Source: a virus (lineage: Duplodnaviria > Heunggongvirae > Uroviricota > Caudoviricetes). From it: DNA of 64,000 nt. Of the stretch, positions 62 through 64,000 are shown one piece after another (within the stretch, counting starts at the first letter, position 1; every line of letters begins with the position of its first letter). The stretch lies in IMG/VR virus record IMGVR_UViG_3300032322_001781; one strand, given 5' to 3'. The notes beneath the pieces were generated by a model. The model made no database searches, had not been told where the DNA came from, and saw only the letters and a program-made list of their open reading frames with translations. Position numbers and translations under genes: made by a program.

Positions 62-147
62 GGGGGAGCTGCTCAGATGGTGGATGGGCACCAGACTGTA
101 AATCTGGCACATAAGAAACGCAGGGGGTTCGAATCCCTCCTTCCCCA
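62..147 (+). tRNA. tRNA-Tyr (anticodon GTA), type II with long variable arm
   Basis: Manual cloverleaf: 7-bp acceptor gggggag/cttcccc, anticodon loop ctGTAaa, T-arm ggggg-ttcgaat-ccctc, 15-nt variable arm. Confidence 0.8.
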
Positions 148-205
148 CGTCTAGACTGTTATACTTTCATAGACGGTGAACAACCGTAGCATAGAAAGTT
201 AAAAT

Positions 206-277
206 GCCTCTGAAACATATATGGTGATGTGCTAGTCTTGTAAACTAGATAATCCGATTCGAGTTCGGACAGAGGCT
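206..277 (+). tRNA. tRNA-Thr (anticodon TGT)
   Basis: Acceptor gcctctg/cagaggc, D-stem acat/atgt, anticodon stem ctagt/actag with loop ctTGTaa, T-arm tccga-ttcgagt-tcgga. Confidence 0.85.
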
Positions 278-383
278 CAAAAGAATGAAAAGAAATCTCA
301 GAGATGGTTGACATGTGTTACGACTGAAGGCGGCACTAATAGGTTTTTTCCAACATGAAGTACAAGTGTTGGATAGTTCATAT

Positions 384-457
384 GCATCATTCGCCTAGTT
401 GGTATGGCACCACACTTCCAATGTGGAATAGGGTCGGTTCGAGACCGACATGATGCT
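384..457 (+). tRNA. tRNA-Gly (anticodon TCC)
   Basis: Acceptor gcatcat/atgatgc, anticodon stem ccaca/tgtgg with loop ctTCCaa, T-arm gtcgg-ttcgaga-ccgac. Confidence 0.85.
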
Positions 458-524
458 CTGTGGTTATGGGACTGTTTATGATTTTATCGACTTGGCATTT
501 CAAGGAACGTAAAAAATCAACAAT

Positions 525-598
525 GTCGGTGACGCATAATTGGTGGTGCACCACCTTGCCAAGGTGGAATAGAGTGGGTTCGATTCCCATTACCGACT
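525..598 (+). tRNA. tRNA-Gly (anticodon GCC)
   Basis: Acceptor gtcggtg/taccgac, D-stem gcat/gtgc, anticodon stem ccacc/ggtgg with loop ttGCCaa, T-arm gtggg-ttcgatt-cccat. Confidence 0.85.
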
Positions 599-979
599 CG
601 TAAGTCGCTGGGACCTTAACCGTGCGAAATTCAAATAAGACAGTGAAAGGTGACGGGTGCAGAGAGAGGCACATAACGGGAGGGTTGAAATGGTAGAACA
701 ATACATTTTGACTAAAAAATGTTTACAGCAAAAAACACAAAATTCAAACAAACAGTAAATTTGCGTAACGTAGGTGCGACTCCTACCCCTCCCAATCAAT
801 CAAGTTAACTCGCTTCCACGTAGCGATTGATGGAAACAGGTAAAGCTGGCTAAGAAGTTAAAAAAATTATTAATAAAAAATAAAAACTACATTATGAAAA
901 AGATGTCCTTCAAATTTAAACGAAAATCCAAACGTTAAAGGCATCTGTAGATAACCTACGGATGCTTAATATTATATAC

Positions 980-1053
980 TGGCGTGTATCCGTAAAGGCA
1001 TTCGGTCCTCCCTCTTAAGGAGATTTATGTGGGTTCAACTCCCATCACGCCAA
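980..1053 (+). tRNA. tRNA-Lys (anticodon CTT) by manual fold
   Basis: Acceptor tggcgtg/cacgcca, anticodon loop ctCTTaa, T-arm gtggg-ttcaact-cccat; starts with T and 4-bp anticodon stem, so moderate confidence. Confidence 0.6.
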
Positions 1054-1058
1054 CTAAT

Positions 1059-1146
1059 GACTCTGTTCCCGTAGTTGGCCGAACGGTCCAGCCTTTTAAG
1101 CTGATGTGTGCAAACACCACCGTGGGTTCAAATCCCACCAGGGTCA
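1059..1146 (+). tRNA. Type II tRNA (Leu/Ser/Tyr-like architecture, 17-nt variable arm hairpin gtgt-gcaa-acac); anticodon uncertain (my fold gives TTT)
   Basis: Acceptor gactctg/cagggtc, perfect T-arm gtggg-ttcaaat-cccac, long variable arm; anticodon arm ccagc-cttttaa-gctga. Confidence 0.6.
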
Positions 1147-1162
1147 CAAAATTTTATAAAAA

Positions 1163-5886: not shown

Positions 5887-6058
5887 ACAGATTAAGAAAA
5901 GAAATTAAAGGTGATGAGCTTTATCTTTATAATGAAAAAAATGAATTAATATTTAAACGTTGGATAAAATTGGGTTATTCAAAAGTATTTGATGTAATAC
6001 CATATGGTAAAAACGACACGTATATATCTATTACAGATGAAGGAATTAAATATAAAAG

Positions 6059-6385
6059 ATGAGTTTAGATAGGAAAAAAGTTGATAAAAAACCGATAAAT
6101 TCAATAGTACCTAAAAAAAGAGAGATTGAAACACATAAAGAGGAGAAAAAACAAAATGATATCGGCTCAAATAACGATGAGTACTCATTATTACCAAAAT
6201 TTATAAAACAAAGTGTTTCTGAAACAAAAAACAGTTTAAAATTTATTAGAATTAGTTTAGATGCTGATATGGAAGAAAGAAAAAAAATTAGCGATAAACT
6301 TTCAAAAAATGAAATAAAACTTCAGTTTTTTGGTGTTGATGGTAATAAATCTTATCATTATTATTTAGAAATTAAAAAAAATTAA
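6059..6385 (+). CDS. hypothetical protein (Lys/Glu-rich)
   Basis: ORF. Confidence 0.4.
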   Translation: MSLDRKKVDKKPINSIVPKKREIETHKEEKKQNDIGSNNDEYSLLPKFIKQSVSETKNSLKFIRISLDADMEERKKISDKLSKNEIKLQFFGVDGNKSYHYYLEIKKN

Positions 6386-6386
6386 C

Positions 6387-6818
6387 ATGATGTTAAAAGA
6401 AAAAATAAACAATGATTTCATGGAGGCTTATAAAGCTAAAAACATGGAAAAGAAAAACTTTTTGGGTGTTCTTAAAGGGGCTATTCAAACACAAGAAGGC
6501 AAGATGATAGAATCTACCGATGAAAACGTTTTAAAAGTTATAAAAGCTTTAGAAAAAGGTTTGATTGAGACGATTGAAAGTAAAAATAGAATAGGTCAAG
6601 ACCCTAGTAAAGTAGAAACTGAATTGTCATACTTACAACCATATTTACCTTCGCTTATGAGTGAAGATGAAATTCGTTATGTTGTAAAAGAATTGTTAAA
6701 TAGAGAAGGTATTAACAAAAACCTAGGGTTTCTTATGGGTATGTTTAACAAAGAACAAAGAGGAAAGTCTTTTGATAACAAAGCCGTTTCAAAAATCATA
6801 AACGAAGAACTAGGATGA
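6387..6818 (+). CDS. GatB/YqeY domain protein
   Basis: Aligns along length with YqeY: N-term LKE.IN.D...A.KAK and C-term LMG...N.....S.D.K.VSK.I.E.L. Confidence 0.65.
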   Translation: MMLKEKINNDFMEAYKAKNMEKKNFLGVLKGAIQTQEGKMIESTDENVLKVIKALEKGLIETIESKNRIGQDPSKVETELSYLQPYLPSLMSEDEIRYVVKELLNREGINKNLGFLMGMFNKEQRGKSFDNKAVSKIINEELG

Positions 6819-10943: not shown

Positions 10944-12566
10944 ATGCAATCCGCAAGTCGTTTTTTAAAAAGAAAGCTAGGTCTTAAATCAGTGATTAAA
11001 GACCGCTTGGCTGAAGCCATCAAGAATCGTGATTGGGCTTCCATCGAAAATTTACAAGACCTTATTGCTAAGGCTTTGGATAAACCGTATAACCTTGTAC
11101 TTATGGGTGATGCTTACAAGTATTCACATCATAAGTTTTATGAGGACAATACTACCAAGGTTTATTCTTACATGGAGTCACGTGGTGGAAAATTCAGTGA
11201 AACCGTAGTTTACGGTATTCAAATGTTCATCAAAGAATTTATCGAAGGTGTTGCAATCACTCAAGAAGAGTTGGATGAAGCATACGAATACTTAGGTACA
11301 AAATTGGGTGTGTTCGGACGTGAAGACGTATTCGACAAATCCAAATTCCAATACATAATTGACGTTCACGGTGGCCGTCTTCCAGTTCTTATCAAAGCTG
11401 TTCCAGAAGGAACCGTTGTTGGTGTAAAGAACGTATTGGTAACTATTGAAAACACCGACCCTAATTGCTACTGGTTGACCAACTTCCTTGAAACTATCAT
11501 GATGCAAGTTTGGTATCCTATTACCGTAGCTACCTTATCTCACGAAGTTAAAAAAATTGTTCGTGAGTACTTCCAAAAAACATCAGACCTTCCAGAAAAT
11601 ATCATGGACACGGTTATTGAGTTCGTATTGAACGACTTTGGTTTCCGTGGTGTGTCTTCCGTACAATCGGCTGGTATCGGTGGCTCTGCTCACCTTGTAA
11701 ACTTCTTGGGTTCTGATACAACTTATGCTTCAAAACGTATCTGTGAATACTACAACTCTGACCGAGTATTTGGTTTGAGCGTACCAGCGACTGAACACTC
11801 TATCATGACAATGAGAGGTGAAGCTGGTGAAGTTGAAATGATGAGACGTACACTTGAAAAATATCCTACTGGTATTGTTGCTTGTGTATCTGACTCTTAC
11901 CACATCCTTCGTGCTTGTTCACAATATTGGGGAACTGAATTGCGTGACCTTATCTTGAGTCGCCCAGCAGAACCAGGTAACCAGTTGGTTATTCGCCCAG
12001 ACTCTGGCCACGTTGTGAATACACTTAAAGCTGTATTTGAAATCTTGTTTGACAAGTTTGGTTACACAACCAACTCAAAAGGATTCAAAGTATTACCTCC
12101 ACAAGTCCGTGTTATCCAAGGTGATGGTGTAAACATCGGTTCTATTGGTGAAATCTATGAAGAACTTTACAAGCTAGGTATTTCTGCTGAGAACATCGTG
12201 TTTGGTATGGGTGGAAAGTTGTTACAAGCTGACATCAACCGTGACACACAAAACTTCGCAACCAAAGCGTGTTTTGCAGTTGTTGATGGTGTTGAGCGTG
12301 ACCTTGTAAAATCACCAACAGAAGTTGATGAAAATGGTGACTTGAAACCTTCATTCAAGAAATCAAAACAAGGTCGTTTGAAACTTGTTAAGAATGAAGA
12401 TGGAACTTACCGCACTGTAACATCACGTGATGCTGACTTTGATAGCGTTAATGATGAATTGGTTCCAATATTCCAAGATGGTGAAATACTTGTAGAATAC
12501 ACATTCGAAGAAATCAGAGAAAGAGTTCAAGCTACTTTCAAAAAACAAGAATTGGAGGTTGCGTAA
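10944..12566 (+). CDS. nadV: nicotinamide phosphoribosyltransferase (NAMPT/NadV)
   Basis: Strong NAMPT-family similarity (DAYKYSHHKFY.., VVYGIQMFIKEF, GSDTTY motifs); about 48-aa N-terminal extension relative to canonical NAMPT. Confidence 0.85.
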   Translation: MQSASRFLKRKLGLKSVIKDRLAEAIKNRDWASIENLQDLIAKALDKPYNLVLMGDAYKYSHHKFYEDNTTKVYSYMESRGGKFSETVVYGIQMFIKEFIEGVAITQEELDEAYEYLGTKLGVFGREDVFDKSKFQYIIDVHGGRLPVLIKAVPEGTVVGVKNVLVTIENTDPNCYWLTNFLETIMMQVWYPITVATLSHEVKKIVREYFQKTSDLPENIMDTVIEFVLNDFGFRGVSSVQSAGIGGSAHLVNFLGSDTTYASKRICEYYNSDRVFGLSVPATEHSIMTMRGEAGEVEMMRRTLEKYPTGIVACVSDSYHILRACSQYWGTELRDLILSRPAEPGNQLVIRPDSGHVVNTLKAVFEILFDKFGYTTNSKGFKVLPPQVRVIQGDGVNIGSIGEIYEELYKLGISAENIVFGMGGKLLQADINRDTQNFATKACFAVVDGVERDLVKSPTEVDENGDLKPSFKKSKQGRLKLVKNEDGTYRTVTSRDADFDSVNDELVPIFQDGEILVEYTFEEIRERVQATFKKQELEVA

Positions 12567-17664: not shown

Positions 17665-19266
17665 ATGAGATTCAAAGAATTAACAAATGAAATAATTGAA
17701 AAAGCTAAGTCCATATATGTTGATAAAACGTTATCATGGGACGAAAGAATGAAATTACTTACAGAATTATTTGGACGTTCAGAACGTACTGTTCGTAGAT
17801 GGTGTAGTGAAAAACTTTCTTTTAAAGAAAAAGTTGATGTTGAACCTGAACAATATATAAAAGCCAAACAAAAACAAATTAATTTAGAGAAAAATAGATT
17901 TATTATTACTTGGGCTCAAAATAACACTCCAATTAATGTTAAATTTTTAAAAAATATTGAGGCGTATGCTGAACATATAAATGCGGATATTCATGTCATA
18001 GCTGGTAGATATAAAAATCCAACTAGTATTTGGACAAATGAACAAGAAAATGAAGAATTCTGGGATTCAAGAATTTTAAAATATTTGGATGCTAATAGAC
18101 ATGATGTGCATAAATTCTTATCAATCTTGTCAGATATCAAGATTCAACCAACAGCTGTTAATCCAATGGTTGGTATGCAAGCATTAAGTGGTATTAATTC
18201 TTGTGTTTTTGGTAGTCCAAAAGTTCAATTGGAAATGATTCCAGTTTTGGAAAATAACGTACCTAAAATGATGTTAACTACTGGTGCGATAACATTACAA
18301 AATTATACTGATTCTAAGTCTGGTAAAGTTGGGGCGTTTCATCACACATTTGGTTTTGCTATTGTTGAGATTAGTGATGAAAATGTTTTTCATGTTAGAC
18401 AAGTAACGGCTGATGATAAATCAGGTAATTTTTCTGATTTATTTTATAGGGTTGAAAATGGGAATGTAACTGAATTAAATAAAATAGAAGCTATTATATT
18501 GGGTGATTTACATTGTGGTCATCACGATGAAAATGTTTTGAAAGCTACGTTTAAATTAACTAGTAAGTTATCACCTACACACGTTGTGTTACATGATGTA
18601 TTCGATGGTGATTCTATAAGTCATCATCAGATGAAAGACCCATTTGTTCAATATGGAAAAGAAGTACAAGGAACCAATGATTTGGGTAAAGAAATTGATA
18701 ACATGATGGGTGTTTTAGATAATTTTATACATTTTGAAAACGTTGTTATCGTTCGTTCAAATCACGATGATTTTGTTGATAGATGGTTAAAAAATGAAGA
18801 TTGGAAGAAACAACCAACATTTAAAAACGCACCATTATATATGGAGTTAAGTGCCAGATTATTAAAACAATATGGTAAAGGTAATGAACATGTAATTGGT
18901 GTAATCCCAGAACTAATTAAAGAGCGTTTTCCTAAGTATATTACTTTAGATAGAAGTGCTTCTTATAAGGTAAAGGGTGGTTGGGAATTAGGACAACATG
19001 GTGATATTTCAGCTAATGGGTCTAGAGGGTCGTTGATTAATTTTAGAAAATTAAACACCAAAATCATAGTCGGTCACTATCATACGCCTGGACGAAAAGA
19101 CGGAGCTCTTTCAGTTGGAACCACTACAAAATTAAGAGTTGGCTATAATTTAGGCCCGTCATCATGGTTACAAAGTCACGTAATAATACATAATGACGGA
19201 CGTGCCCAGCACATTAATTTCATTCATGATAAAAATGGAATAGCTAATTTTACAACATTTATTTAA
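17665..19266 (+). CDS. large protein with C-terminal metallophosphoesterase domain
   Basis: GDLHCGHHD, SNHDDF, GQHGD, GHYHTPG motifs in C-terminal half. Confidence 0.5.
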   Translation: MRFKELTNEIIEKAKSIYVDKTLSWDERMKLLTELFGRSERTVRRWCSEKLSFKEKVDVEPEQYIKAKQKQINLEKNRFIITWAQNNTPINVKFLKNIEAYAEHINADIHVIAGRYKNPTSIWTNEQENEEFWDSRILKYLDANRHDVHKFLSILSDIKIQPTAVNPMVGMQALSGINSCVFGSPKVQLEMIPVLENNVPKMMLTTGAITLQNYTDSKSGKVGAFHHTFGFAIVEISDENVFHVRQVTADDKSGNFSDLFYRVENGNVTELNKIEAIILGDLHCGHHDENVLKATFKLTSKLSPTHVVLHDVFDGDSISHHQMKDPFVQYGKEVQGTNDLGKEIDNMMGVLDNFIHFENVVIVRSNHDDFVDRWLKNEDWKKQPTFKNAPLYMELSARLLKQYGKGNEHVIGVIPELIKERFPKYITLDRSASYKVKGGWELGQHGDISANGSRGSLINFRKLNTKIIVGHYHTPGRKDGALSVGTTTKLRVGYNLGPSSWLQSHVIIHNDGRAQHINFIHDKNGIANFTTFI

Positions 19267-23020: not shown

Positions 23021-25039
23021 TTGCAAAAAGAAAAATTTGGTAGTATATTTGTAAAAATGATTAAAATAAACGAAATATTAGAAGGTAGATTAAGCATGAA
23101 CGCTAGTTGTTCAGCTTATTTGGTTAGCAACGATTTACCCAAGGACATTTACATTAGCAAAAACAACACAAATAAAGCTCTTCATTTAGATACCGTTAAG
23201 GTTAGAGTGATTGAAGGTAATGGCCGTTCAATTGAAGGTGAAGTAATTGAAATCATAGAACGATTTAGAAACGATTTTGTTGGTACTATACAAGTGTCAC
23301 CACGATATGCTTTCTTCATTCCAGATAGCAACAAGTTACCAATAGACTTTTTCATACCATTGGCCAAATCCATGGGTGCCAAAGATGGTCAAAAAGTTGT
23401 TGCCAGATTGGTTGAGTGGAAAGACGATGCCAAAAACCCCAATGGTGAAATCATTCGTATTATAGGGGATGCTGGAGAACATGAAACAGAAATACATTCG
23501 ATACTAGAAGAATATGGTTTACCATATGACTTTGATGGCGATGTAATAGCTGAATCAGAAGCCATTTCAGAAATCATCCCACAATCAGAGATTGACAAGC
23601 GTAGAGATATGCGTAATGTACTTACATTTACCATTGACCCAGCGGATGCCAAAGACTTTGATGATGCTTTGAGTGTTGAATGGGTGAACGGTGAATTGTT
23701 TGTTGGTGTTCACATTGCCGATGTATCGCATTATTTGCGTCCAGACACTGAATTGGACAAAGAAGCGTATGCTAGAGGTACTTCGGTATACCTAGTAGAT
23801 AGATGCGTTCCAATGCTTCCAGAAAGGCTTTCTAATGGCTTATGTAGTCTTAGACCAAACGAAGATAAGCTTTGTTTCTCAGCGGTTTTTAAATTGGACC
23901 ACAACGGCCATGTATTGGAAGAATGGTATGGTAGAACTGTAATTAACTCCAATCATCGTTTCACTTATGAGGAAGCACAAGAGGTTATAGAATGGAAAGA
24001 TTATAATGCTATGTCAAACCTATGTAAAAAAATTGGACTTGTTGATTTTAGTGTTGATGAAAAAGTAGATGAGGATTTAATAAAAGCTCATGGTTTAATC
24101 AACGCAATCAAGACACTTGACAAGATTGCCAAGAAGATGCGTAAGGTTCGTTTATCTAAGGGTAGTATATCATTTGATAAACAAGAAGTTAGATTTAAGT
24201 TGGATGAGAAGAACAAACCAATTGATATTATATTCAAGGTTGGCAAGGACTCAAACAAATTGATTGAGGAATACATGTTATTGGCAAACAGACATGTTGC
24301 ACAGTTCCTTAATTCAAAAGGAATACCTAGTGTTAATCGTGCACATGATAAACCCAACGAAGAAAAGCTTAACAGTTTAAAAGACTTTATCAAACAATTT
24401 GGTTATGACATAAAAACCCATGACCCAATTGAAATAACCAAAACACTCAATAAATTGCTTGAAGATGTAAAGGGAAAACCAGAAGAAAATATGATTAATA
24501 ATCTTGTTGTTCGTGCCATGCAAAAAGCAGATTACAGAACCAAGAACATTGGTCACTATGGATTAGGGTTTAAAGACTACACTCATTTTACTAGCCCAAT
24601 TAGACGTTATCCAGATGTAATTGTACATAGATTATTAGGAAGGTTATTAGAAAATAAAGTATCACCTAAGATAGAAAAATTAGAGGCTAAATGTGTTTAT
24701 TTATCAGAAAGAGAGAAGAAAGCTCAAAAGGCTGAACGTGATTCTATCAAGTATATGCAATGCATTTACATGACTAACAATGTTGGTAGAATATACAAGG
24801 GTATAGTTACGTCTGTTGCCGAATATGGATTATTTGTAGAAATGATTGATAACAAATGCGAAGGACTCGTTAGATTATCAGAAATTGGTGGTGACACTTA
24901 CATGGCTGATGTAAATAATTATTGTGTTAAGGGTTTTAATACTGGACAAATTATAAGGCTCGGTGATGAAGTTATGGTGGTTATAAAATCAGTTGATATT
25001 GAAAAGAAAAATATAAATTTGACGCTTATTAGACTATGA
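23021..25039 (+). CDS. rnr: ribonuclease R / RNase II family 3'-5' exoribonuclease
   Basis: RNB catalytic motif TFTIDPADAKDFDDALSVE, N-terminal cold-shock/OB region, C-terminal S1 domain; start may be internal Met (23054). Confidence 0.85.
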   Translation: MQKEKFGSIFVKMIKINEILEGRLSMNASCSAYLVSNDLPKDIYISKNNTNKALHLDTVKVRVIEGNGRSIEGEVIEIIERFRNDFVGTIQVSPRYAFFIPDSNKLPIDFFIPLAKSMGAKDGQKVVARLVEWKDDAKNPNGEIIRIIGDAGEHETEIHSILEEYGLPYDFDGDVIAESEAISEIIPQSEIDKRRDMRNVLTFTIDPADAKDFDDALSVEWVNGELFVGVHIADVSHYLRPDTELDKEAYARGTSVYLVDRCVPMLPERLSNGLCSLRPNEDKLCFSAVFKLDHNGHVLEEWYGRTVINSNHRFTYEEAQEVIEWKDYNAMSNLCKKIGLVDFSVDEKVDEDLIKAHGLINAIKTLDKIAKKMRKVRLSKGSISFDKQEVRFKLDEKNKPIDIIFKVGKDSNKLIEEYMLLANRHVAQFLNSKGIPSVNRAHDKPNEEKLNSLKDFIKQFGYDIKTHDPIEITKTLNKLLEDVKGKPEENMINNLVVRAMQKADYRTKNIGHYGLGFKDYTHFTSPIRRYPDVIVHRLLGRLLENKVSPKIEKLEAKCVYLSEREKKAQKAERDSIKYMQCIYMTNNVGRIYKGIVTSVAEYGLFVEMIDNKCEGLVRLSEIGGDTYMADVNNYCVKGFNTGQIIRLGDEVMVVIKSVDIEKKNINLTLIRL

Positions 25040-35671: not shown

Positions 35672-36472
35672 ATGGAAAAAACAAATTATTACGAAATTTG
35701 TAAACAAAAATTGAAGTATTTGAACTATTCAGAAAAGACAATAACAAATTATCTTTTCCATATAAATCAGTTTTTGAATAATTCCAACGTATCTCCAACC
35801 AGATTACAATCCAAGGATTTTCAGTCATATTTGGATAACTATAAATTCAGCTCCACATCTCAACAGAACCAAATAATAAACTCAATTCGTTTTTTATATA
35901 AATTTGGGTTGAATAAGAAATACGACAAGGTTTCTTTCAAGAGACCAAAATCTGAGAAGAAACTACCTAGAGTAATTGATGGTGATTGCATAAAAGAAAG
36001 ATTGAGTAAGATTGAAAATCTAAAACATAAATCAATCCTAACTTTAACATATTCTGTTGGATTGAGAGTCTCTGAGGTTGTAAATTTAAAGATTGATGAT
36101 ATTGATTCCAAAAGAATGTTAATTCACATTAAAAACGCTAAAGGTAGAAAAGATAGAATAGTTCCCTTATCACCAAATGTTCTTAATTTGCTTAGAGAGT
36201 ACTTCAAAGAATATAGACCTTCCGAATATCTTTTTAATGGCCAGTTTTCTTCCCAGTATTCGATAGGTAGTTGCCAGAAAATATATAAGAAATATATTGA
36301 GAACGATGGACATATCCACACTCTTAGACATAGTTGTGCAACCAATCTATTGGAAAAAGGTACTGACCTAAAATTAATCCAGAAGATTTTAGGTCATTCA
36401 AGTGTTAAAACAACTGAAATATATACCCACGTTTCAAATCAATTATTAAGTAAAATTGAACTTCCTGTATAA
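35672..36472 (+). CDS. tyrosine recombinase / phage integrase (XerC/D family)
   Basis: C-terminal catalytic region LRHSCATNLLEKGTDLKLIQKILGHSSVKTTEIYTH (R..H-x-x-R...Y), upstream R (GLRVSE) box. Confidence 0.85.
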   Translation: MEKTNYYEICKQKLKYLNYSEKTITNYLFHINQFLNNSNVSPTRLQSKDFQSYLDNYKFSSTSQQNQIINSIRFLYKFGLNKKYDKVSFKRPKSEKKLPRVIDGDCIKERLSKIENLKHKSILTLTYSVGLRVSEVVNLKIDDIDSKRMLIHIKNAKGRKDRIVPLSPNVLNLLREYFKEYRPSEYLFNGQFSSQYSIGSCQKIYKKYIENDGHIHTLRHSCATNLLEKGTDLKLIQKILGHSSVKTTEIYTHVSNQLLSKIELPV

Positions 36473-48895: not shown

Positions 48896-48964
48896 AGTAG
48901 AATCGTCTAATTGGTAGGGCGCATCAGGAAAGGTGAAATTTAGGTTCGACTCCTAGTTCTACTA
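48896..48964 (+). tRNA. tRNA-like element (short, ~69 nt) with T-arm ttagg-ttcgact-cctag and D-loop-like aattggtag
   Basis: Perfect 7-bp acceptor agtagaa/ttctact, D-stem gtct/gggc, but no canonical anticodon arm (loop ggaaagg lacks U33). Confidence 0.35.
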
Positions 48965-53786: not shown

Positions 53787-54533
53787 ATGAAAAAATTAAA
53801 CCACTTACAATTTTTAGAAAAATTAGAATTAAAAAATACCTATTACGCTAAAAAAGAATTTGTTGTAAGTGGTTTTTATGTTGATAGTAGAACAAAAATA
53901 GAAGTAGAAACACTATTTGGTAAATGTTTAATATTACCAACAAGTTTACTAAAAGGTTTTAATCCTACTATAGAAACAGCGATTGATAAAAATAATTATA
54001 TTATAGCACAATTTAAAAATGTTCATGGTGATAAATATAATTATGATTATGTGCATTATAAAAATATGAGAAATAAAGTCATTATTTTCTGTGAAAAACA
54101 TAACATGAAATTTTCTCAACTTCCTTCATGTCATTTATCTGGAAGAGGGTGTCCTTGTTGCGGAAAAAATATGATTAGTTTAAATAATCAAAAAAATTGT
54201 ACAACATGGAGTTATTCTGATTGGGAATCTATTGGAAATATATCTTTATATTTTGATTGTTTTAAAGTTTATATAGTAAAATGTTGGGATGAAAATGAGG
54301 AATTTTATAAAATTGGTAAAACTTTTACAAATATAAATAAAAGATTATCTAAAAATAATTTACCTTACAAATATGAAGTATTAAAAATATTTACAGGTAC
54401 AGCTTTAGAAATATCTAAATTAGAGAAAAAATTAATTGATATAAATAAAGAATATAAATATATACCTAAACAAAAATTCAAAGGTATGTATGAATGTTTT
54501 AACAATATAAATAATATAATATGGGAAATTTAG
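53787..54533 (+). CDS. hypothetical protein with Zn-ribbon (C..H...C.CCG); weak GIY-YIG-like stretch
   Basis: CHLSGRGCPCCG; VYIVKCWDENEEFYKIGKT loosely resembles GIY-(10)-YIG. Confidence 0.4.
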   Translation: MKKLNHLQFLEKLELKNTYYAKKEFVVSGFYVDSRTKIEVETLFGKCLILPTSLLKGFNPTIETAIDKNNYIIAQFKNVHGDKYNYDYVHYKNMRNKVIIFCEKHNMKFSQLPSCHLSGRGCPCCGKNMISLNNQKNCTTWSYSDWESIGNISLYFDCFKVYIVKCWDENEEFYKIGKTFTNINKRLSKNNLPYKYEVLKIFTGTALEISKLEKKLIDINKEYKYIPKQKFKGMYECFNNINNIIWEI

Positions 54534-61757: not shown

Positions 61758-61801
61758 AACCCCATCAAAAACGATATCATTAGAAAAAAAAATAAAATAA
61801 A

Positions 61802-61833
61802 TTTGGTATATTCAAAATTATTTCATACCTTTG
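61802..61833 (+). promoter_or_regulatory. Bacteroidetes-type promoter
   Basis: TTTGG-N20-TACCTTTG. Confidence 0.6.
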
Positions 61834-61857: not shown

Positions 61858-63015
61858 ATGAAAGAAAAACTAGAACAACATGAAATCGACTTAATGTCAG
61901 TTGTTAGTAATAAATGGATAAAATTAGCATTCGACAAATGCTCGGATGGTATTAATAAACCAGCCTTCGAAGAAGGTATTGCTTGGCTGTATAAAAGATT
62001 CCTAGACTTGGGCGCACCCCAAGTAGTTTATTGCGAGTCAATGCTGGATGCTGTAATTAAAATCACTCTTGTAAAAGATTATGGTAAAGAATTGTCAGAT
62101 TTCTCACCAAAAATCATGGATGACTTTCACAATGGTGAATTAGATGCTGATTTTGTCGCTAAAATAAAAGAAAACTATTCCCTAAAATCAACTTATATCG
62201 GTTGGTCTAACTATGGTTGGGTTAGTTTCTACGATTTCTTCACTCAAATTAACGTTCTCAATCACGAAGACTTCAACAACTATCAAAAGCTGATTGAATC
62301 AAATGTATTTGAATGTTTTGAATTTGAAAATGTGGTTTTCGCTGTTCAACCACCAAGCAAAGTCATTTACAATGAAGCATTGCTTCCACATAACCTAGAA
62401 GGCCCTTCTATCATCTTCAACGATGGTTCAGATTTCTACCATGTTAATGGGTTTTCAATATCTCATGAATTATTTGAAAAATTGAAAACCAATACCTACA
62501 CATTTCAAGACTTCATTAGTGAAGAAAATGAAGAAATAAAATCAGCCATTATTTCGTATTTGGAACTTAAAAACGGTCCAATCGGTGTATATGATTTTAT
62601 CAAAGATAATCTTAAAGAAGTGGATTCTTTCGTAGATAAAAAAGAAGACCGTTTTATGGAAGGTACTACCAAAAGCATGAATATAGGTGTGTATACCCTA
62701 TTCAAAGGGAATATCAATAACATTGATATAGCTTATGTTAGATGCTACTGCCCATCCACTGATAGAATGTTCTTCTTAGGCGTGGACCCAGAAAACACCA
62801 ACGCTAAAGATGCTATCGCCTCTCTATTTAGAGTACCAACTGTTTTGAAAAACAAAATCAAAACCATCTCAAGACAAGGTGAAAAATTTTCGATAGAATT
62901 TGATGAGGAAACTATCGCAAAATTACAAAACAATCAATTTTCACAAGAAGAATTAAATACTTATACAACAGTATCAGGTGATGAATACTTCTCCCTTATG
63001 AAATATGAATTTTAA
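61858..63015 (+). CDS. hypothetical protein (first ATG after promoter)
   Basis: Track start 61831 has no ATG and lies in promoter. Confidence 0.5.
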   Translation: MKEKLEQHEIDLMSVVSNKWIKLAFDKCSDGINKPAFEEGIAWLYKRFLDLGAPQVVYCESMLDAVIKITLVKDYGKELSDFSPKIMDDFHNGELDADFVAKIKENYSLKSTYIGWSNYGWVSFYDFFTQINVLNHEDFNNYQKLIESNVFECFEFENVVFAVQPPSKVIYNEALLPHNLEGPSIIFNDGSDFYHVNGFSISHELFEKLKTNTYTFQDFISEENEEIKSAIISYLELKNGPIGVYDFIKDNLKEVDSFVDKKEDRFMEGTTKSMNIGVYTLFKGNINNIDIAYVRCYCPSTDRMFFLGVDPENTNAKDAIASLFRVPTVLKNKIKTISRQGEKFSIEFDEETIAKLQNNQFSQEELNTYTTVSGDEYFSLMKYEF

Positions 63016-63056: not shown

Positions 63057-63293
63057 ATGGAACAAATGGAAAAAATGGTTAATGTTGCACCAACAAGCAC
63101 AAGCGGTCACTTTATTAAAGGGGCAAAAAATGTAGTTAACATCGACAATATCAACGATACGTATTTCGTTGATGGTGAAAGTGAATTGGTTACTCAAAAC
63201 CATACTACACTTAAACAAGATAATTCTTGCTTAATCACCACTCAAATGGTTTTTAACCCATTTTCAAAAATGTTTGAAAAAAGTCTCGACTAA
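63057..63293 (+). CDS. hypothetical protein
   Basis: ORF. Confidence 0.4.
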   Translation: MEQMEKMVNVAPTSTSGHFIKGAKNVVNIDNINDTYFVDGESELVTQNHTTLKQDNSCLITTQMVFNPFSKMFEKSLD

Positions 63294-63316
63294 ACAAACA
63301 TGTCTTGTTAATAAAC

Positions 63317-63352
63317 AAAAAGAGCATATTTTATACATATGCTCTTTTTTAT
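63317..63352 (+). terminator. rho-independent terminator
   Basis: agagcatat-tttatac-atatgctct + T6. Confidence 0.75.
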
Positions 63353-63362
63353 TTTAATCTAT

Positions 63363-63578
63363 ATGGAACTAGGTAATTCAGTATATAATTCAGTATGGAA
63401 TTCAGTAAGTGTTTCAGTATATAATTCAGTATGGAATTCAGTATATGATTCAGTAGAGAATTCAGTACGGAGTTCAGTATTGAATTCAGTAAGTGATTCA
63501 GTAAGTAATTCAGTATGGCTTTCAGTAAGGGATTCAGTAACCAGACAAATTCAAAATATAAAACATGAAACTAGGTAA
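63363..63578 (+). CDS. small ORF 1 of tandem array: (N/D)SVx tetrapeptide-repeat protein
   Basis: MELGNSVYNSVWNSV...; stop overlaps next ATG. Confidence 0.4.
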   Translation: MELGNSVYNSVWNSVSVSVYNSVWNSVYDSVENSVRSSVLNSVSDSVSNSVWLSVRDSVTRQIQNIKHETR

Positions 63579-63744
63579 ATCAATAAGTAATTCAGTAAGG
63601 AATTCAGTAAGGATTCCAGTAAATGATTCAGTAACTAATTCAGTATGGGGTTCAGTAAGGGATTCAGTATGGGATTCAGTAAGGGATTCAGTATGGAATT
63701 CTGTCATTCGACCAACTAGAAATATAAAAAATGAATATAGGTAA
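63565..63744 (+). CDS. small ORF 2 of tandem array (59 aa, not in track)
   Basis: MKLGKSISNSVRNSV...TRNIKNEYR*; overlaps ORF1 end and ORF3 start. Confidence 0.4.
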   Translation: MKLGKSISNSVRNSVRIPVNDSVTNSVWGSVRDSVWDSVRDSVWNSVIRPTRNIKNEYR

Positions 63745-63901
63745 TTCAGTTAAAAGCAAAGTAACTAATTCAGTATTGAATTCAGTAAATGATTCAGTAA
63801 GTAATTCAGTATGGAATTCAGTAAGTAATTCAGTATATTATTCAGTAAATGATTCAGTAACTAATTCAATAACCAGACCAACCAGAAATATAATAAAATG
63901 A
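63731..63901 (+). CDS. small ORF 3 of tandem array (56 aa)
   Basis: MNIGNSVKSKVTNSVLNSV...; stop TGA overlaps next start in ATGA. Confidence 0.4.
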   Translation: MNIGNSVKSKVTNSVLNSVNDSVSNSVWNSVSNSVYYSVNDSVTNSITRPTRNIIK

Positions 63902-64000
63902 ATATAGGTAAACCAATATGTAATTCAGTAAGGAATTCAGTAAGTAATTCAGTATATGATTCAGTAAGGGATTCAGTATTGGATTCAGTATGGGATTCAG
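63898..64000 (+). CDS. small ORF 4 of tandem array (partial, runs off window)
   Basis: MNIGKPICNSVRNSVSNSV... Confidence 0.35.
   Translation, partial: MNIGKPICNSVRNSVSNSVYDSVRDSVLDSVWDS

What the first reader, a model, noticed from the sequence alone, without database searches (positions are those of the whole stretch)
63300..64000. Tandem array of overlapping mini-genes built from a 12-nt repeat with invariant TTCAGTA core
After a terminator, at least four consecutive ~170-nt units each start with ATGAAYWTAGGTAA and then run 10-13 copies of a 12-nt repeat (e.g. aattcagtatgg). In the coding frame these read (N/D)-S-V-x and end in a conserved TRPTRNIK tail. Adjacent ORFs overlap, with the stop lying within or next to the next ATG (ATGA-type). 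Across about 45 repeats the Ser and Val codons are always TCA and GTA, with no synonymous variation, while the fourth codon varies at all positions. That pattern fits DNA- or RNA-level constraint (iterons or protein-binding sites such as a replication origin, or a recombination-homogenised array) better than relaxed protein evolution. Alternatively it is a hypervariable repeat-protein cassette. The array runs off the window end.
Basis: seen in the sequence. Interest (0 to 1): 0.8.

Follow-up and report, generated by a model that had tools for sequence, protein, structure and literature searches.

The report
Hypervariable phage array of repeat-protein mini-genes
The window ends inside a multi-kilobase tandem array of tiny overlapping phage genes, each encoding one helix built from a four-residue repeat; the array is scrambled between otherwise near-identical phages and is the detached form of a repeat module normally embedded in the neighbouring DUF6745-like protein.

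Summary
From 63363 to the window end there are four head-to-tail units. Each has its own ATG, 9-14 copies of a 12-nt repeat with core TTCAGTA, a conserved tail, and a stop overlapping the next start.

The iteron or origin reading is not supported. The x-S-V-x frame has no stop in 589 variable codons (about 25-52 expected). An aliphatic residue every fourth position persists where the DNA core has decayed. A profile of the mini-proteins matches the internal repeats of DUF6745 proteins at E 1e-55.

The adjacent gene (61858-63015) is a DUF6745-like protein that lacks those repeats. Contigs with 99-100% identical flanks carry complete arrays of 10 or 27 units. Relatives carry about 39-44. The arrays share 12-mers but no 48-mers.

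Homologous arrays elsewhere use other codons (TCC/TCT-GTG, TCA-GTC, AAT-GTC). Codon uniformity therefore reflects concerted evolution plus diversification of two exposed residues, as described for mycobacteriophage Tweety gp54.

The function is inferred, not shown: a variable host-interaction or counter-defence repertoire. It remains unexplained why several lineages with saturated synonymous sites all keep TCA-GTA.

The parts
61798..61833 (+). Two Bacteroidetes-type -7 promoter-like motifs (TAAATTTG at 61798-61805, TACCTTTG at 61826-61833), just upstream of the DUF6745-like gene. Probable start of the transcription unit that includes the array.
   Evidence: No further TAnnTTTG motif lies between here and the window end. 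The same paired motif sits upstream of the homologous gene in L084. This is a consensus match only.
61858..63015 (+). DUF6745-like gene of 385 aa. It has the N-terminal (about 75 aa) and C-terminal (about 270 aa) domains of the family but lacks the central tetrapeptide-repeat segment found in many homologues.
63057..63293 (+). Conserved 78-aa gene between the DUF6745-like gene and the array.
   Evidence: It is present in the same position in L002, L004-L008, L084 and L088-90. A possible distant relative follows the DUF6745 gene in L019 and L213 and precedes it in L062 (hhalign probability 43%).
63317..63359 (+). Intrinsic-terminator-like hairpin (13 bp stem) plus T run, 14 nt before the first mini-gene. 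Probably attenuates read-through into the array.
   Evidence: It is 100% conserved in L001, L002 and L084.
63363..63578 (+). Mini-gene 1 (71 aa): MELG head, 14 x-S-V-x repeats, tail TRQIQNIKHETR.
   Evidence: The stop TAA lies inside the head of unit 2.
63565..63744 (+). Mini-gene 2 (59 aa): MKLGKSIS head, about 11 period-4 repeats, tail IRPTRNIKNEYR.
   Evidence: AF2 with a 46-sequence alignment gives one helix over residues 3-58, pLDDT 87.7.
63731..63901 (+). Mini-gene 3 (56 aa): MNIGNSVKSKV head, about 11 repeats, tail TRPTRNIIK. ATGA overlap with unit 4.
   Evidence: The identical protein is called on an independent ENA contig, L001.
63898..64000 (+). Mini-gene 4, truncated by the window end (MNIGKPICNSVRNSV...).
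   Evidence: Contigs with the same flanks continue for 10 units (L084) or 27 units (L002).

Best explanation
The region is the start of a protein-coding tandem multigene array in a phage, probably of a Flavobacteriia or other Bacteroidota host.

Each unit of about 155-280 nt is a separate mini-gene. It encodes a 52-103-aa, mostly basic protein predicted to be one long alpha-helix. The protein has a short conserved head (M-K/N/E-L/I-G-K/N-S/P-V-K-x-K-V), 8-20 tetrapeptide repeats x-S-V-x, and a conserved tail ((I/T)RPTRNI(R/I)K). Consecutive units are never in the same frame, and every junction overlaps, so they are probably translated by coupled termination and re-initiation from one transcript. 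That transcript probably starts at the promoter of the upstream DUF6745-like gene and reads through a hairpin.

The mini-proteins are the detached version of the tetrapeptide-repeat segment that in many homologues sits between the N- and C-terminal domains of the DUF6745-like protein. Here that protein has lost the segment.

The array evolves by repeat-mediated recombination: slippage, unequal crossing-over and short-tract conversion among the 12-nt repeats and the roughly 170-nt units. This homogenises the 7-nt core, synonymous sites included. Meanwhile the two exposed residues per repeat diversify through one-step codon neighbours (TGG, AGG, AGT and so on).

Inferred, not shown: the array supplies a co-expressed, rapidly changing repertoire of repeat helices that act with the DUF6745-like protein in phage-host conflict. 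This is analogous to the repeat-number-tunable counter-defence protein gp54 of mycobacteriophage Tweety.
For: Coding:
- 0 stops in 36, 215 and 338 variable codons, against 2-3, 10-19 and 12.5-30 expected.
- All 27 units of L002 and all 10 of L084 are complete ORFs.
- 26 of 26 junctions in L002 overlap: -14, -4 (ATGA), -10 or -23 nt.
- Unit lengths differ by multiples of 12 and are never a multiple of 3.

Protein-level constraint:
- 290 of 321 tetrads keep an aliphatic third residue although the DNA core has 2 or more mismatches; background 0.257, P about 1e-132.
- Degenerate units keep the period-4 pattern.

Homology to the fused repeats:
- A profile of the mini-proteins hits 3249 cluster representatives. 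The best hits (E 1e-55 and beyond) are 370-590-aa proteins with several internal matches, and those tested score above the Pfam DUF6745 cut-off at 46-88 bits.
- The linker SVIIPIHEAIKN in P0071 resembles the mini-gene tail SVIIPIQNIRN.

Split versus fused:
- Adjacent mini-genes occur next to repeat-less DUF6745 genes in the window lineage and in L004, L005/L006 (about 39 units in L006), L019, L062 and L213/L214 (at least 44 units).
- About 25 loci whose DUF6745 gene has internal repeats show no adjacent array.

Concerted evolution with drift between lineages:
- Each array is codon-homogeneous, but the codons differ between lineages. Mini-gene arrays: TCA-GTA here, TCC/TCT-GTG in L213, TCA-GTC in L215, AAT-GTC in L062. 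Internal repeats of fused DUF6745 genes: TCG-GTC, TCT-GTA, AGC-GTG.

Hypervariability:
- Flanks are 99.3-100% identical, yet copy number is 10 versus 27.
- The arrays share 73-88% of 12-mers, 0-2% of 36-mers and no 48-mers. One degenerate unit is 100% identical between arrays.

Structure: AF2 gives a single helix with pLDDT 87.7.

Analogy: Tweety gp54 has a 12-bp unit with invariant third positions and variable first and second positions (PMC2884959), and changes in its repeat number tune counter-defence (PMC9262239).
Against: - There are no expression or proteomic data.
- A terminator-like hairpin sits 14 nt before the first unit, and no promoter motif lies inside the array, so expression may be low.
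- The functional link to the DUF6745-like protein rests on gene neighbourhood and domain-fusion logic. Two arrays (L212, L215) have no DUF6745 gene within 10 kb.
- Tweety gp54 is not homologous (hhalign probability 0.2%), so the counter-defence role is only an analogy.
- No match to PADLOC, PHROG functional families, the PDB or Rfam.
- TCA-GTA, with AGG for Arg, is retained in the window, L004, L005/L006, L019 and L212 lineages. Yet conserved Ser and Val residues in the flanking genes share a codon in only 8 of 42 cases. Simple neutral concerted evolution does not predict this.
- All comparison sequences are metagenome assemblies. They are replicated across samples, and no more than 3% of 60-mers are repeated within an array.
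Confidence: 0.75

Rival explanations
1. The repeats are DNA-level elements: iterons or another protein-binding array such as a replication origin, partition site or titration sponge. On this view the ORFs are incidental.
For: - The 7-nt core TTCAGTA is far more conserved than protein coding requires. TCA is 93% in the array against 29% genome-wide, GTA 91% against 34%, and the rare AGG and GAG codons are used.
- The same core is kept in lineages whose flanking genes are synonymously saturated.
- All copies are on one strand.
- The array follows a terminator and has no obvious promoter of its own.
Against: - Strong stop avoidance in exactly one frame.
- Conserved ATG, head, tail and overlapping stop in every unit.
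- Protein periodicity is retained where the core is lost.
- Homologous arrays and fused proteins use other nucleotide cores.
- The 12-bp period is out of phase with the DNA helix.
- Hundreds of copies, with copy number 10 versus 27 in near-identical phages.
- No accumulation of the motif at promoters or elsewhere in the window: 3 copies in 63 kb.
- No origin-like change of GC skew across the array.
Confidence: 0.05
2. The array is a silent reservoir of repeat cassettes that are recombined into an expressed gene, for example the DUF6745-like gene, as in pilS/pilE or vls antigenic variation. The units themselves would not be translated.
For: - The upstream DUF6745-like gene lacks the repeat segment that homologues carry.
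- The array lies behind a terminator.
- The arrays are scrambled at the scale of 1-2 repeats.
Against: - Each unit keeps its own start codon and an overlapping stop, which a silent cassette does not need.
- The DUF6745-like gene in these lineages has a non-repeat linker with no homology to serve as a recipient site.
- That gene is 99% identical among phages whose arrays differ completely.
Confidence: 0.07
3. The array is a selfishly or neutrally expanding tandem duplication of one small gene, with no adaptive value in its multiplicity. The variation would be relaxed drift.
For: - Copy number varies freely (10, 27, about 39, at least 44).
- Some units are degenerate or truncated, such as the 23-aa unit at L002 5296.
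- Close relatives such as L007 manage with one unit or none.
Against: - A phage genome pays for 2-8 kb of extra DNA.
- All units remain open with intact starts and stops.
- Non-synonymous diversity at the x positions is 3-4 times the synonymous diversity at the neighbouring Ser and Val third positions, the opposite of relaxed drift.
- Large arrays arose in several lineages with different heads, tails and codons.
Confidence: 0.1
4. The differences between arrays, or the array itself, are artefacts of short-read metagenome assembly across repeats.
For: All comparison sequences are metagenome contigs, and many contigs end inside the arrays.
Against: - Identical arrays were assembled independently from different samples or pipelines: L002 equals L003 over 4493 nt, and L084, L085 and L086 agree.
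- Within an array, no more than 3% of 60-mers and about 0% of 84-mers are repeated, so reads of 100-150 nt can resolve them.
- The array is in the given window itself.
Confidence: 0.03

Closest known systems
Mycobacteriophage Tweety gp54, with Che8 gp57 and PMC gp51: tetrapeptide-repeat proteins, with gp54 acting as a counter-defence against Phrann gp29/gp30
   Same: - A 12-bp DNA unit encodes a tetrapeptide. Two residues are invariant and their codons are invariant, third positions included. Variation is confined to the first and second positions of the other two codons.
- Repeat number differs among related phages (48, 26 and 15).
- The authors read the pattern as selection for variation (PMC2884959).
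- Escape mutants change repeat number and so tune counter-defence (PMC9262239).
- The fused DUF6745-type relatives share the layout: N-terminal domain, repeats, C-terminal domain.
   Different: - The repeat is A-A-(G/W/Q)-(S/Y), not x-S-V-x.
- The flanking domains show no detectable homology (hhalign probability 0.2%; no Pfam hit).
- gp54 is one polypeptide. Here the repeats are split off as dozens of separate mini-genes.
- No counter-defence activity has been shown for this family.
Pfam DUF6745 (PF20530) proteins with internal (xSVx)n or (xNVx)n repeats
   Same: - The adjacent gene is a homologue, with E-values down to 1e-255 for close relatives, many of them labelled PF20530.
- The mini-protein profile matches the internal repeats of these proteins at E 1e-55.
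- The family is found in phages and in Bacteroidota genomes (Chryseobacterium, Chitinophaga, Prevotella).
   Different: - In this locus the repeats are not in the DUF6745-like polypeptide. They lie in a downstream array of independent ORFs.
- The window protein itself scores just under the Pfam cut-off (24.5 against 27 bits).
- The family has no known function, no solved structure and no literature.
Bordetella phage BMP-1 VR2 in gene bbp36
   Same: A tandem element with a constant part and a 5-bp variable spacer, repeated 9-20 times depending on the isolate, in a non-essential phage gene (as cited in PMC2884959).
   Different: The unit is 24 bp within one gene. It is not a multigene array, and no homology was tested here.
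Iterons of plasmid and phage replication origins
   Same: Many direct repeats with an invariant core on one strand.
   Different: Iterons are non-coding, few in number (typically fewer than 10; from general knowledge), about 17-22 bp long and next to an initiator gene. Here there are hundreds of copies inside maintained ORFs.
Pentapeptide-repeat proteins (A(D/N)LXX)
   Same: Similar residue pattern: small residue, then N, D or S, then an aliphatic residue, then a variable one. Some relatives read (A/D)N(L/V/I)x.
   Different: The period is 4, not 5. There is no Pfam Pentapeptide hit. AF2 predicts an alpha-helix, not a beta-helix.

Membership tests
Tetrapeptide-repeat module of DUF6745-type proteins (mini-proteins as members) | Period-4 repeat x-(S/N)-(V/I/L)-x over many consecutive copies | tested here: met
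   9-14 copies per unit in the window and 8-20 in L002. The third residue is aliphatic in over 90% of tetrads.
Tetrapeptide-repeat module of DUF6745-type proteins (mini-proteins as members) | Significant profile similarity to the internal repeat region of DUF6745 proteins | tested here: met
   hmmsearch of profile A4 against 1.84 billion representatives gave best hits at E 1e-55 to 1e-30, in 370-590-aa proteins with 2-6 internal matches. P0241, P0243 and P0250 score 46-88 bits on PF20530. Caveat: the repeats are compositionally biased.
Tetrapeptide-repeat module of DUF6745-type proteins (mini-proteins as members) | Repeats embedded between the N- and C-terminal globular domains of one polypeptide | tested here: not met
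   Each unit is a separate ORF of 52-103 aa with its own start and stop. The neighbouring 385-aa protein has no repeats.
Pfam DUF6745 (adjacent gene 61858-63015) | Score at or above the Pfam gathering threshold (27 bits) | tested here: inconclusive
   24.5 bits for the 394-aa ORF read from TTG 61831 and 21.6 bits for its 99%-identical homologue P0003, both below the cut-off. Many close homologues carry a precomputed PF20530 label, and the distant relative in L213 scores 42.9 bits.
Tweety gp54-like tetrapeptide-repeat counter-defence proteins | 12-bp unit with invariant codons (third positions included) and variation at first and second positions of the other codons | tested here: met
   compared with PMC2884959.
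Tweety gp54-like tetrapeptide-repeat counter-defence proteins | Sequence homology of the repeat (A-A-x-x) and of the flanking domains | tested here: not met
   hhalign of A1 against gp54 gives probability 0.2%. The repeat motif differs.
Tweety gp54-like tetrapeptide-repeat counter-defence proteins | Repeat or copy number varies among closely related phages | tested here: met
   10 units (L084) against 27 units (L002) with 94-100% identical flanks. Repeat number per unit ranges from 8 to 20.
Tweety gp54-like tetrapeptide-repeat counter-defence proteins | Neutralises a host or prophage defence system | not testable with these tools
   Needs genetics. No PADLOC or other functional match was found.
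Iterons / replication origin | Non-coding direct repeats that bind an initiator encoded nearby | tested here: not met
   The repeats lie in ORFs with stop avoidance. No initiator-like family was found among the flanking genes scanned. There is no skew switch across the array.
Pentapeptide-repeat proteins | Period-5 repeat recognised by the Pfam Pentapeptide models; beta-helix fold | tested here: not met
   No Pfam hit. The period is 4, and AF2 predicts a helix.
Diversity-generating retroelement target | Template and variable repeat pair, reverse transcriptase, adenine-specific substitutions | not tested
   The window ORFs were not screened systematically for a reverse transcriptase. The variable positions show A, T and G alternatives at five contiguous sites in hundreds of copies, which does not resemble a TR/VR pair.

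The most novel reading that the evidence does not exclude
The invariant 7-nt core is itself functional. It would act as a built-in microhomology or recombination signal that drives very frequent, always in-frame shuffling of the 5-nt variable cassettes among hundreds of repeats. The locus would then be a dedicated combinatorial diversity generator for a library of single-helix binder proteins. These would be co-expressed from one operon and would work with the DUF6745-like protein against host defences. Such a phage hypervariation mechanism would be distinct from diversity-generating retroelements and from simple changes in repeat number. It would also explain why TCA-GTA is retained across lineages whose other synonymous sites are saturated.
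Probability: 0.2. Interest if true: 0.85.

Novelty: new variant of a known kind. Interest (0 to 1): 0.68.

Why it matters
Phage genomes are compact. Spending 2-8 kb on 10 to more than 40 near-copies of a 60-residue gene, and scrambling them between otherwise identical genomes, suggests strong and changing selection of the kind expected in phage-host conflict.

The only experimentally studied tetrapeptide-repeat phage protein, Tweety gp54, is a counter-defence factor tuned by repeat number. The present family shows the same DNA-level signature. It is also much more widespread: over 3000 protein clusters match the repeat profile, the best-scoring of them DUF6745 proteins, and the DUF6745-like gene occurs in phages and in Bacteroidota genomes. 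It has both a fused form and a split, massively amplified form.

This gives a tractable entry point to the function of a large family of unknown function. It also offers a natural experiment on how repeat proteins diversify, setting concerted evolution of a core against diversification of exposed residues. It may also point to a new hypervariation mechanism.

For annotation, it shows that such arrays are genes, not origins or assembly debris.

Tried and rejected
- Known phages: blastn and tblastn of the region and of the DUF6745-like protein against INPHARED phages found nothing. Only the A1-like protein placed the phage, near Maribacter and Flavobacterium phages at 44-47% identity.
- Function databases: Pfam, PHROGs and PADLOC on the mini-proteins and neighbours gave no functional family. 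Rfam found nothing in the array.
- Extending the window: exact look-ups of the 394-aa ORF and of units 1 and 2 were not on record. Two exact-pattern scans of metagenome contigs returned nothing. The true length of this window's own array is therefore unknown, and extension relied on contigs with identical flanks (L001, L002, L084).
- A scan of IMG/VR for three TTCAGTA cores at 12-nt spacing returned mostly unrelated simple repeats and added no new family members.
- Homology between Tweety gp54 and this family was rejected.
- The pentapeptide-repeat and beta-helix idea was rejected.
- Phage tRNAs for TCA or GTA as an explanation of the codon choice: none found. The window has tRNA-Tyr, Thr, Gly, Gly and Lys only.
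- Literature searches for DUF6745 and for the repeat peptides as strings found nothing.
Full report
**1. Observation**

The last 640 nt of the window contain four head-to-tail units starting at 63363, 63565, 63731 and 63898.
- Each unit opens with ATG-R-A-N-H-T-W-GG-Y-M-A. It then runs 9-14 copies of a 12-nt repeat (consensus AATTCAGTAWGK) and ends in a tail encoding (T/I)RPTRNI(K/I)K.
- Tandem Repeats Finder gives period 12 with 40.7 copies.
- TTCAGTA occurs 36 times here, all on the + strand, with 31 spacings of exactly 12 nt. It occurs only 3 times in the remaining 63.3 kb.
- A 13-bp hairpin plus T run (63317-63349) precedes the array by 14 nt.

**2. What lies beyond the window**

An exact-protein look-up of unit 3, followed by look-ups of homologues, gave contigs with the same flanks.
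- L002 and L003 share 525 of 525 upstream bases with the window. They carry 27 complete mini-ORFs over 5,068 nt, followed by about 1.1 kb of non-coding DNA.
- L084, L085 and L086 have an upstream flank 99.3% identical to the window and a downstream flank 94-97% identical to L002. L084, the only one of the three that reaches the downstream flank, carries only 10 units over 2,048 nt.
- L001 is a third mosaic variant.
- Phages whose DUF6745-like protein is only 43-59% identical have the same layout: about 39 mini-ORFs in L006 (running to the contig end), 7 in L005, 2 in L004 and 5 in L019.
- More distant lineages have arrays with other heads and tails. L213/L214 has at least 44 units on both sides of a bona fide DUF6745 gene on contigs of 260 and 135 kb. 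L062 has x-N-V-x units on both sides. L212 and L215 are further examples.

**3. It is coding**

- Taking only the DNA-defined core and reading the next codon, no stop occurs in 36, 215 and 338 cases (window, L002, L006). Between 2-3, 10-19 and 12.5-30 are expected.
- All 27 units in L002 and all 10 in L084 are intact ORFs.
- All 26 junctions in L002 overlap, by 14, 4 (ATGA), 10 or 23 nt.
- Unit lengths differ by multiples of 12 and are never divisible by 3. Each unit therefore needs its own initiation, and the array is not a broken long ORF.
- Where the nucleotide core has 2 or more mismatches, 290 of 321 tetrads still have V, I, L or M at the third position. The background is 0.257, giving P about 1e-132. 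Degenerate units such as L002 1952 keep 13 of 13 aliphatic residues at that position.

**4. What the proteins are**

- The upstream gene (61858-63015, 385 aa) belongs to a large family with 634 hits. It lies at the edge of Pfam DUF6745: 24.5 bits against a cut-off of 27.
- Longer homologues carry 16-58 copies of x-S-V-x, x-N-V-x or x-N-L-x between an N-terminal domain of about 75 aa and a C-terminal domain of about 270 aa. The window's protein has an unrelated 40-aa linker instead.
- A profile of the mini-proteins searched against 1.84 billion representatives finds 3249 clusters. The best (E 1e-55) are such fused proteins, and those tested pass the DUF6745 threshold.
- A second architecture joins the same repeats to a small LWxxGxxPSFDGxxWRLH C-terminal domain.
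- Among full-length loci, adjacent mini-genes occur only beside repeat-less DUF6745 genes. None occurs beside about 25 repeat-bearing ones. This is a fused-versus-split complementarity and argues that the mini-proteins work with that protein.
- A direct search found 162 free-standing mini-proteins, none of them annotated.

**5. The codon puzzle**

In the array, Ser at position 2 is TCA in 93% of cases (29% genome-wide). Val is GTA in 91% (34% genome-wide). Arg is AGG (9% genome-wide) and Glu is GAG (14% genome-wide). Diversity at the five variable nucleotides is 3-4 times that at the Ser and Val third positions.

Across the family, each array is codon-homogeneous, but lineages differ:
- Mini-gene arrays: TCC/TCT-GTG in L213/L214, TCA-GTC in L215, AAT-GTC in L062.
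- Internal repeats of fused DUF6745 genes: TCG-GTC, TCT-GTA, AGC-GTG, AGC-GTT and TCC/TCA-GTT.

This is the signature of concerted evolution of a recombining repeat under protein-level selection, together with diversification of two exposed residues. The top variable codons everywhere are TGG and AGG, which are one-step neighbours. This suggests rapid W/R/S toggling rather than optimised codon usage.

One thing remains unexplained. The window, L004, L005/L006, L019 and L212 lineages all keep TCA-GTA. Yet conserved Ser and Val residues in the flanking genes of the window and L006 share a codon in only 8 of 42 cases. Transfer of arrays between phages, or a constraint on the core, are both open.

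**6. Hypervariability**

- The window array and the L002 array have flanks that are 100% identical. They share 88% of 12-mers, 20% of 24-mers, 2% of 36-mers and no 48-mers. The window against L084 is similar.
- Best unit-to-unit identities between arrays (0.78-0.84) are no higher than those between paralogues within an array.
- In contrast, one degenerate unit that lacks the repeat core is 100% identical between L084 and L002.
- The difference between arrays is therefore repeat-dependent scrambling on the scale of one or two repeats, not general divergence.
- Assemblies are reproducible across samples, and the arrays contain almost no exact repeats of 60 nt or more.

**7. Structure and expression (inferred)**

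- AF2 predicts unit 2 as a single helix over residues 3-58, with pLDDT 87.7.
- In a fused homologue the two globular domains are modelled confidently. The repeat is helical but at low confidence.
- The mini-proteins are mostly basic: median pI 10.3, with 22% Ser, 17% Val, 11% Asn, 9% Arg and 4% Trp.
- Two Bacteroidetes-type -7 motifs lie just upstream of the DUF6745-like gene, and none lies between them and the array. The array is therefore probably co-transcribed through the hairpin and translated by coupling at the overlaps.

**8. Function and closest known case**

No database or fold search gives a function.

The closest documented case is mycobacteriophage Tweety gp54. It has a 12-bp unit with invariant codons, third positions included. 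Its first and second positions vary, and repeat number differs among relatives (PMC2884959). [quoted passage not shown] It is not homologous to the present family, so this is an analogy of mechanism, not membership.

My best-supported reading is a co-expressed, fast-changing repertoire of repeat helices acting with the DUF6745-like protein in phage-host conflict. I put about 0.75 on the structural and evolutionary description and about 0.3-0.4 on the counter-defence role.

**9. Rivals**

The four rivals are iterons or an origin, a silent cassette store, a neutral amplification, and an assembly artefact. Each is contradicted by the tests above. Details and refutation criteria are given in the rival explanations.

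**10. Novelty**

Tetrapeptide-repeat phage proteins and DUF6745 are known. I found no description of the x-S-V-x family, or of its split form as a giant, hypervariable, translationally coupled mini-gene array. I therefore class it as a new variant of a known kind. The nucleotide-level question stays open and could raise its importance.

Noticed in passing
window 62-1147, 2452-2563, 48896-48964: A phage tRNA cluster: Tyr-GTA, Thr-TGT, Gly-TCC, Gly-GCC and Lys-TTT by ARAGORN. Rfam adds tRNA-like hits at 980-1053, 2452-2563 (112 nt, unusually long) and 48896-48964. None decodes the TCA or GTA codons that dominate the array.
   Followed up: partly
window 10944-12566, 17665-19266, 23021-25039, 35672-36472, 53787-54533: All long ORFs lie on the + strand. 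They include a nicotinamide phosphoribosyltransferase, a T5 A1-like DNA-transfer protein (best hits Maribacter phage Panino and Flavobacterium phages, 44-47%), a large nuclease, a tyrosine-integrase-like protein (phrog_1, E 3e-46) and an HNH endonuclease. An integrase in a phage with a T5 A1-type gene is an odd combination.
   Followed up: partly
window 63057-63293; L019 11269-11655; L062 9535-9909; L213 12017-12313: A small protein of 78-128 aa lies next to the DUF6745-like gene in all lineages examined: after it here and in L019 and L213, before it in L062. The window-type and the longer type share an SGH..H motif and a Q..YNP...EK..D C-terminus (hhalign probability 43%, E 2.5e-4), with a weak cupin-like hint. 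It may be a third component of the system.
   Followed up: partly
L002 5600-6690: About 1.1 kb of non-coding DNA lies directly after the array. It contains short tandem repeats (TATAAAGGTA x4.4 at 6056-6099; a 24-nt unit x3 at 5986-6052). Paired TAnnTTTG promoter-like motifs at 6632 and 6659 precede the next gene. Its role is unknown: a regulatory region, an origin or a packaging site.
   Followed up: no
window about 61794; L084 about 3526: A mosaic boundary. L084 is 99.3% identical to the window from the promoter of the DUF6745-like gene onward but unrelated upstream. The DUF6745 gene, the 78-aa gene and the array therefore travel as one exchangeable module.
   Followed up: partly
P0260, P0298, P0330; L121: A second architecture for the same x-S-V-x repeat. 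Proteins of about 170-290 aa have a short N-terminal region, the repeats, and a C-terminal domain of about 60 aa with the motif LWxxGxxPSFDGxxWRLH and no Pfam match. The repeat therefore behaves as a mobile spacer or rod module.
   Followed up: no
window 1-63300: Outside the array TTCAGTA is rare on both strands. There are 3 copies, whereas whole-window shuffles give about 13 in total. The motif may be mildly avoided elsewhere, or this may be chance.
   Followed up: no
L027-L079, many loci: Many viral contigs end exactly inside the repeat segment of their DUF6745 gene, with matches starting at residues of about 95-150 at a contig end. These repeats routinely break short-read assemblies, so the family is probably under-counted and often mis-annotated as truncated genes.
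   Followed up: no
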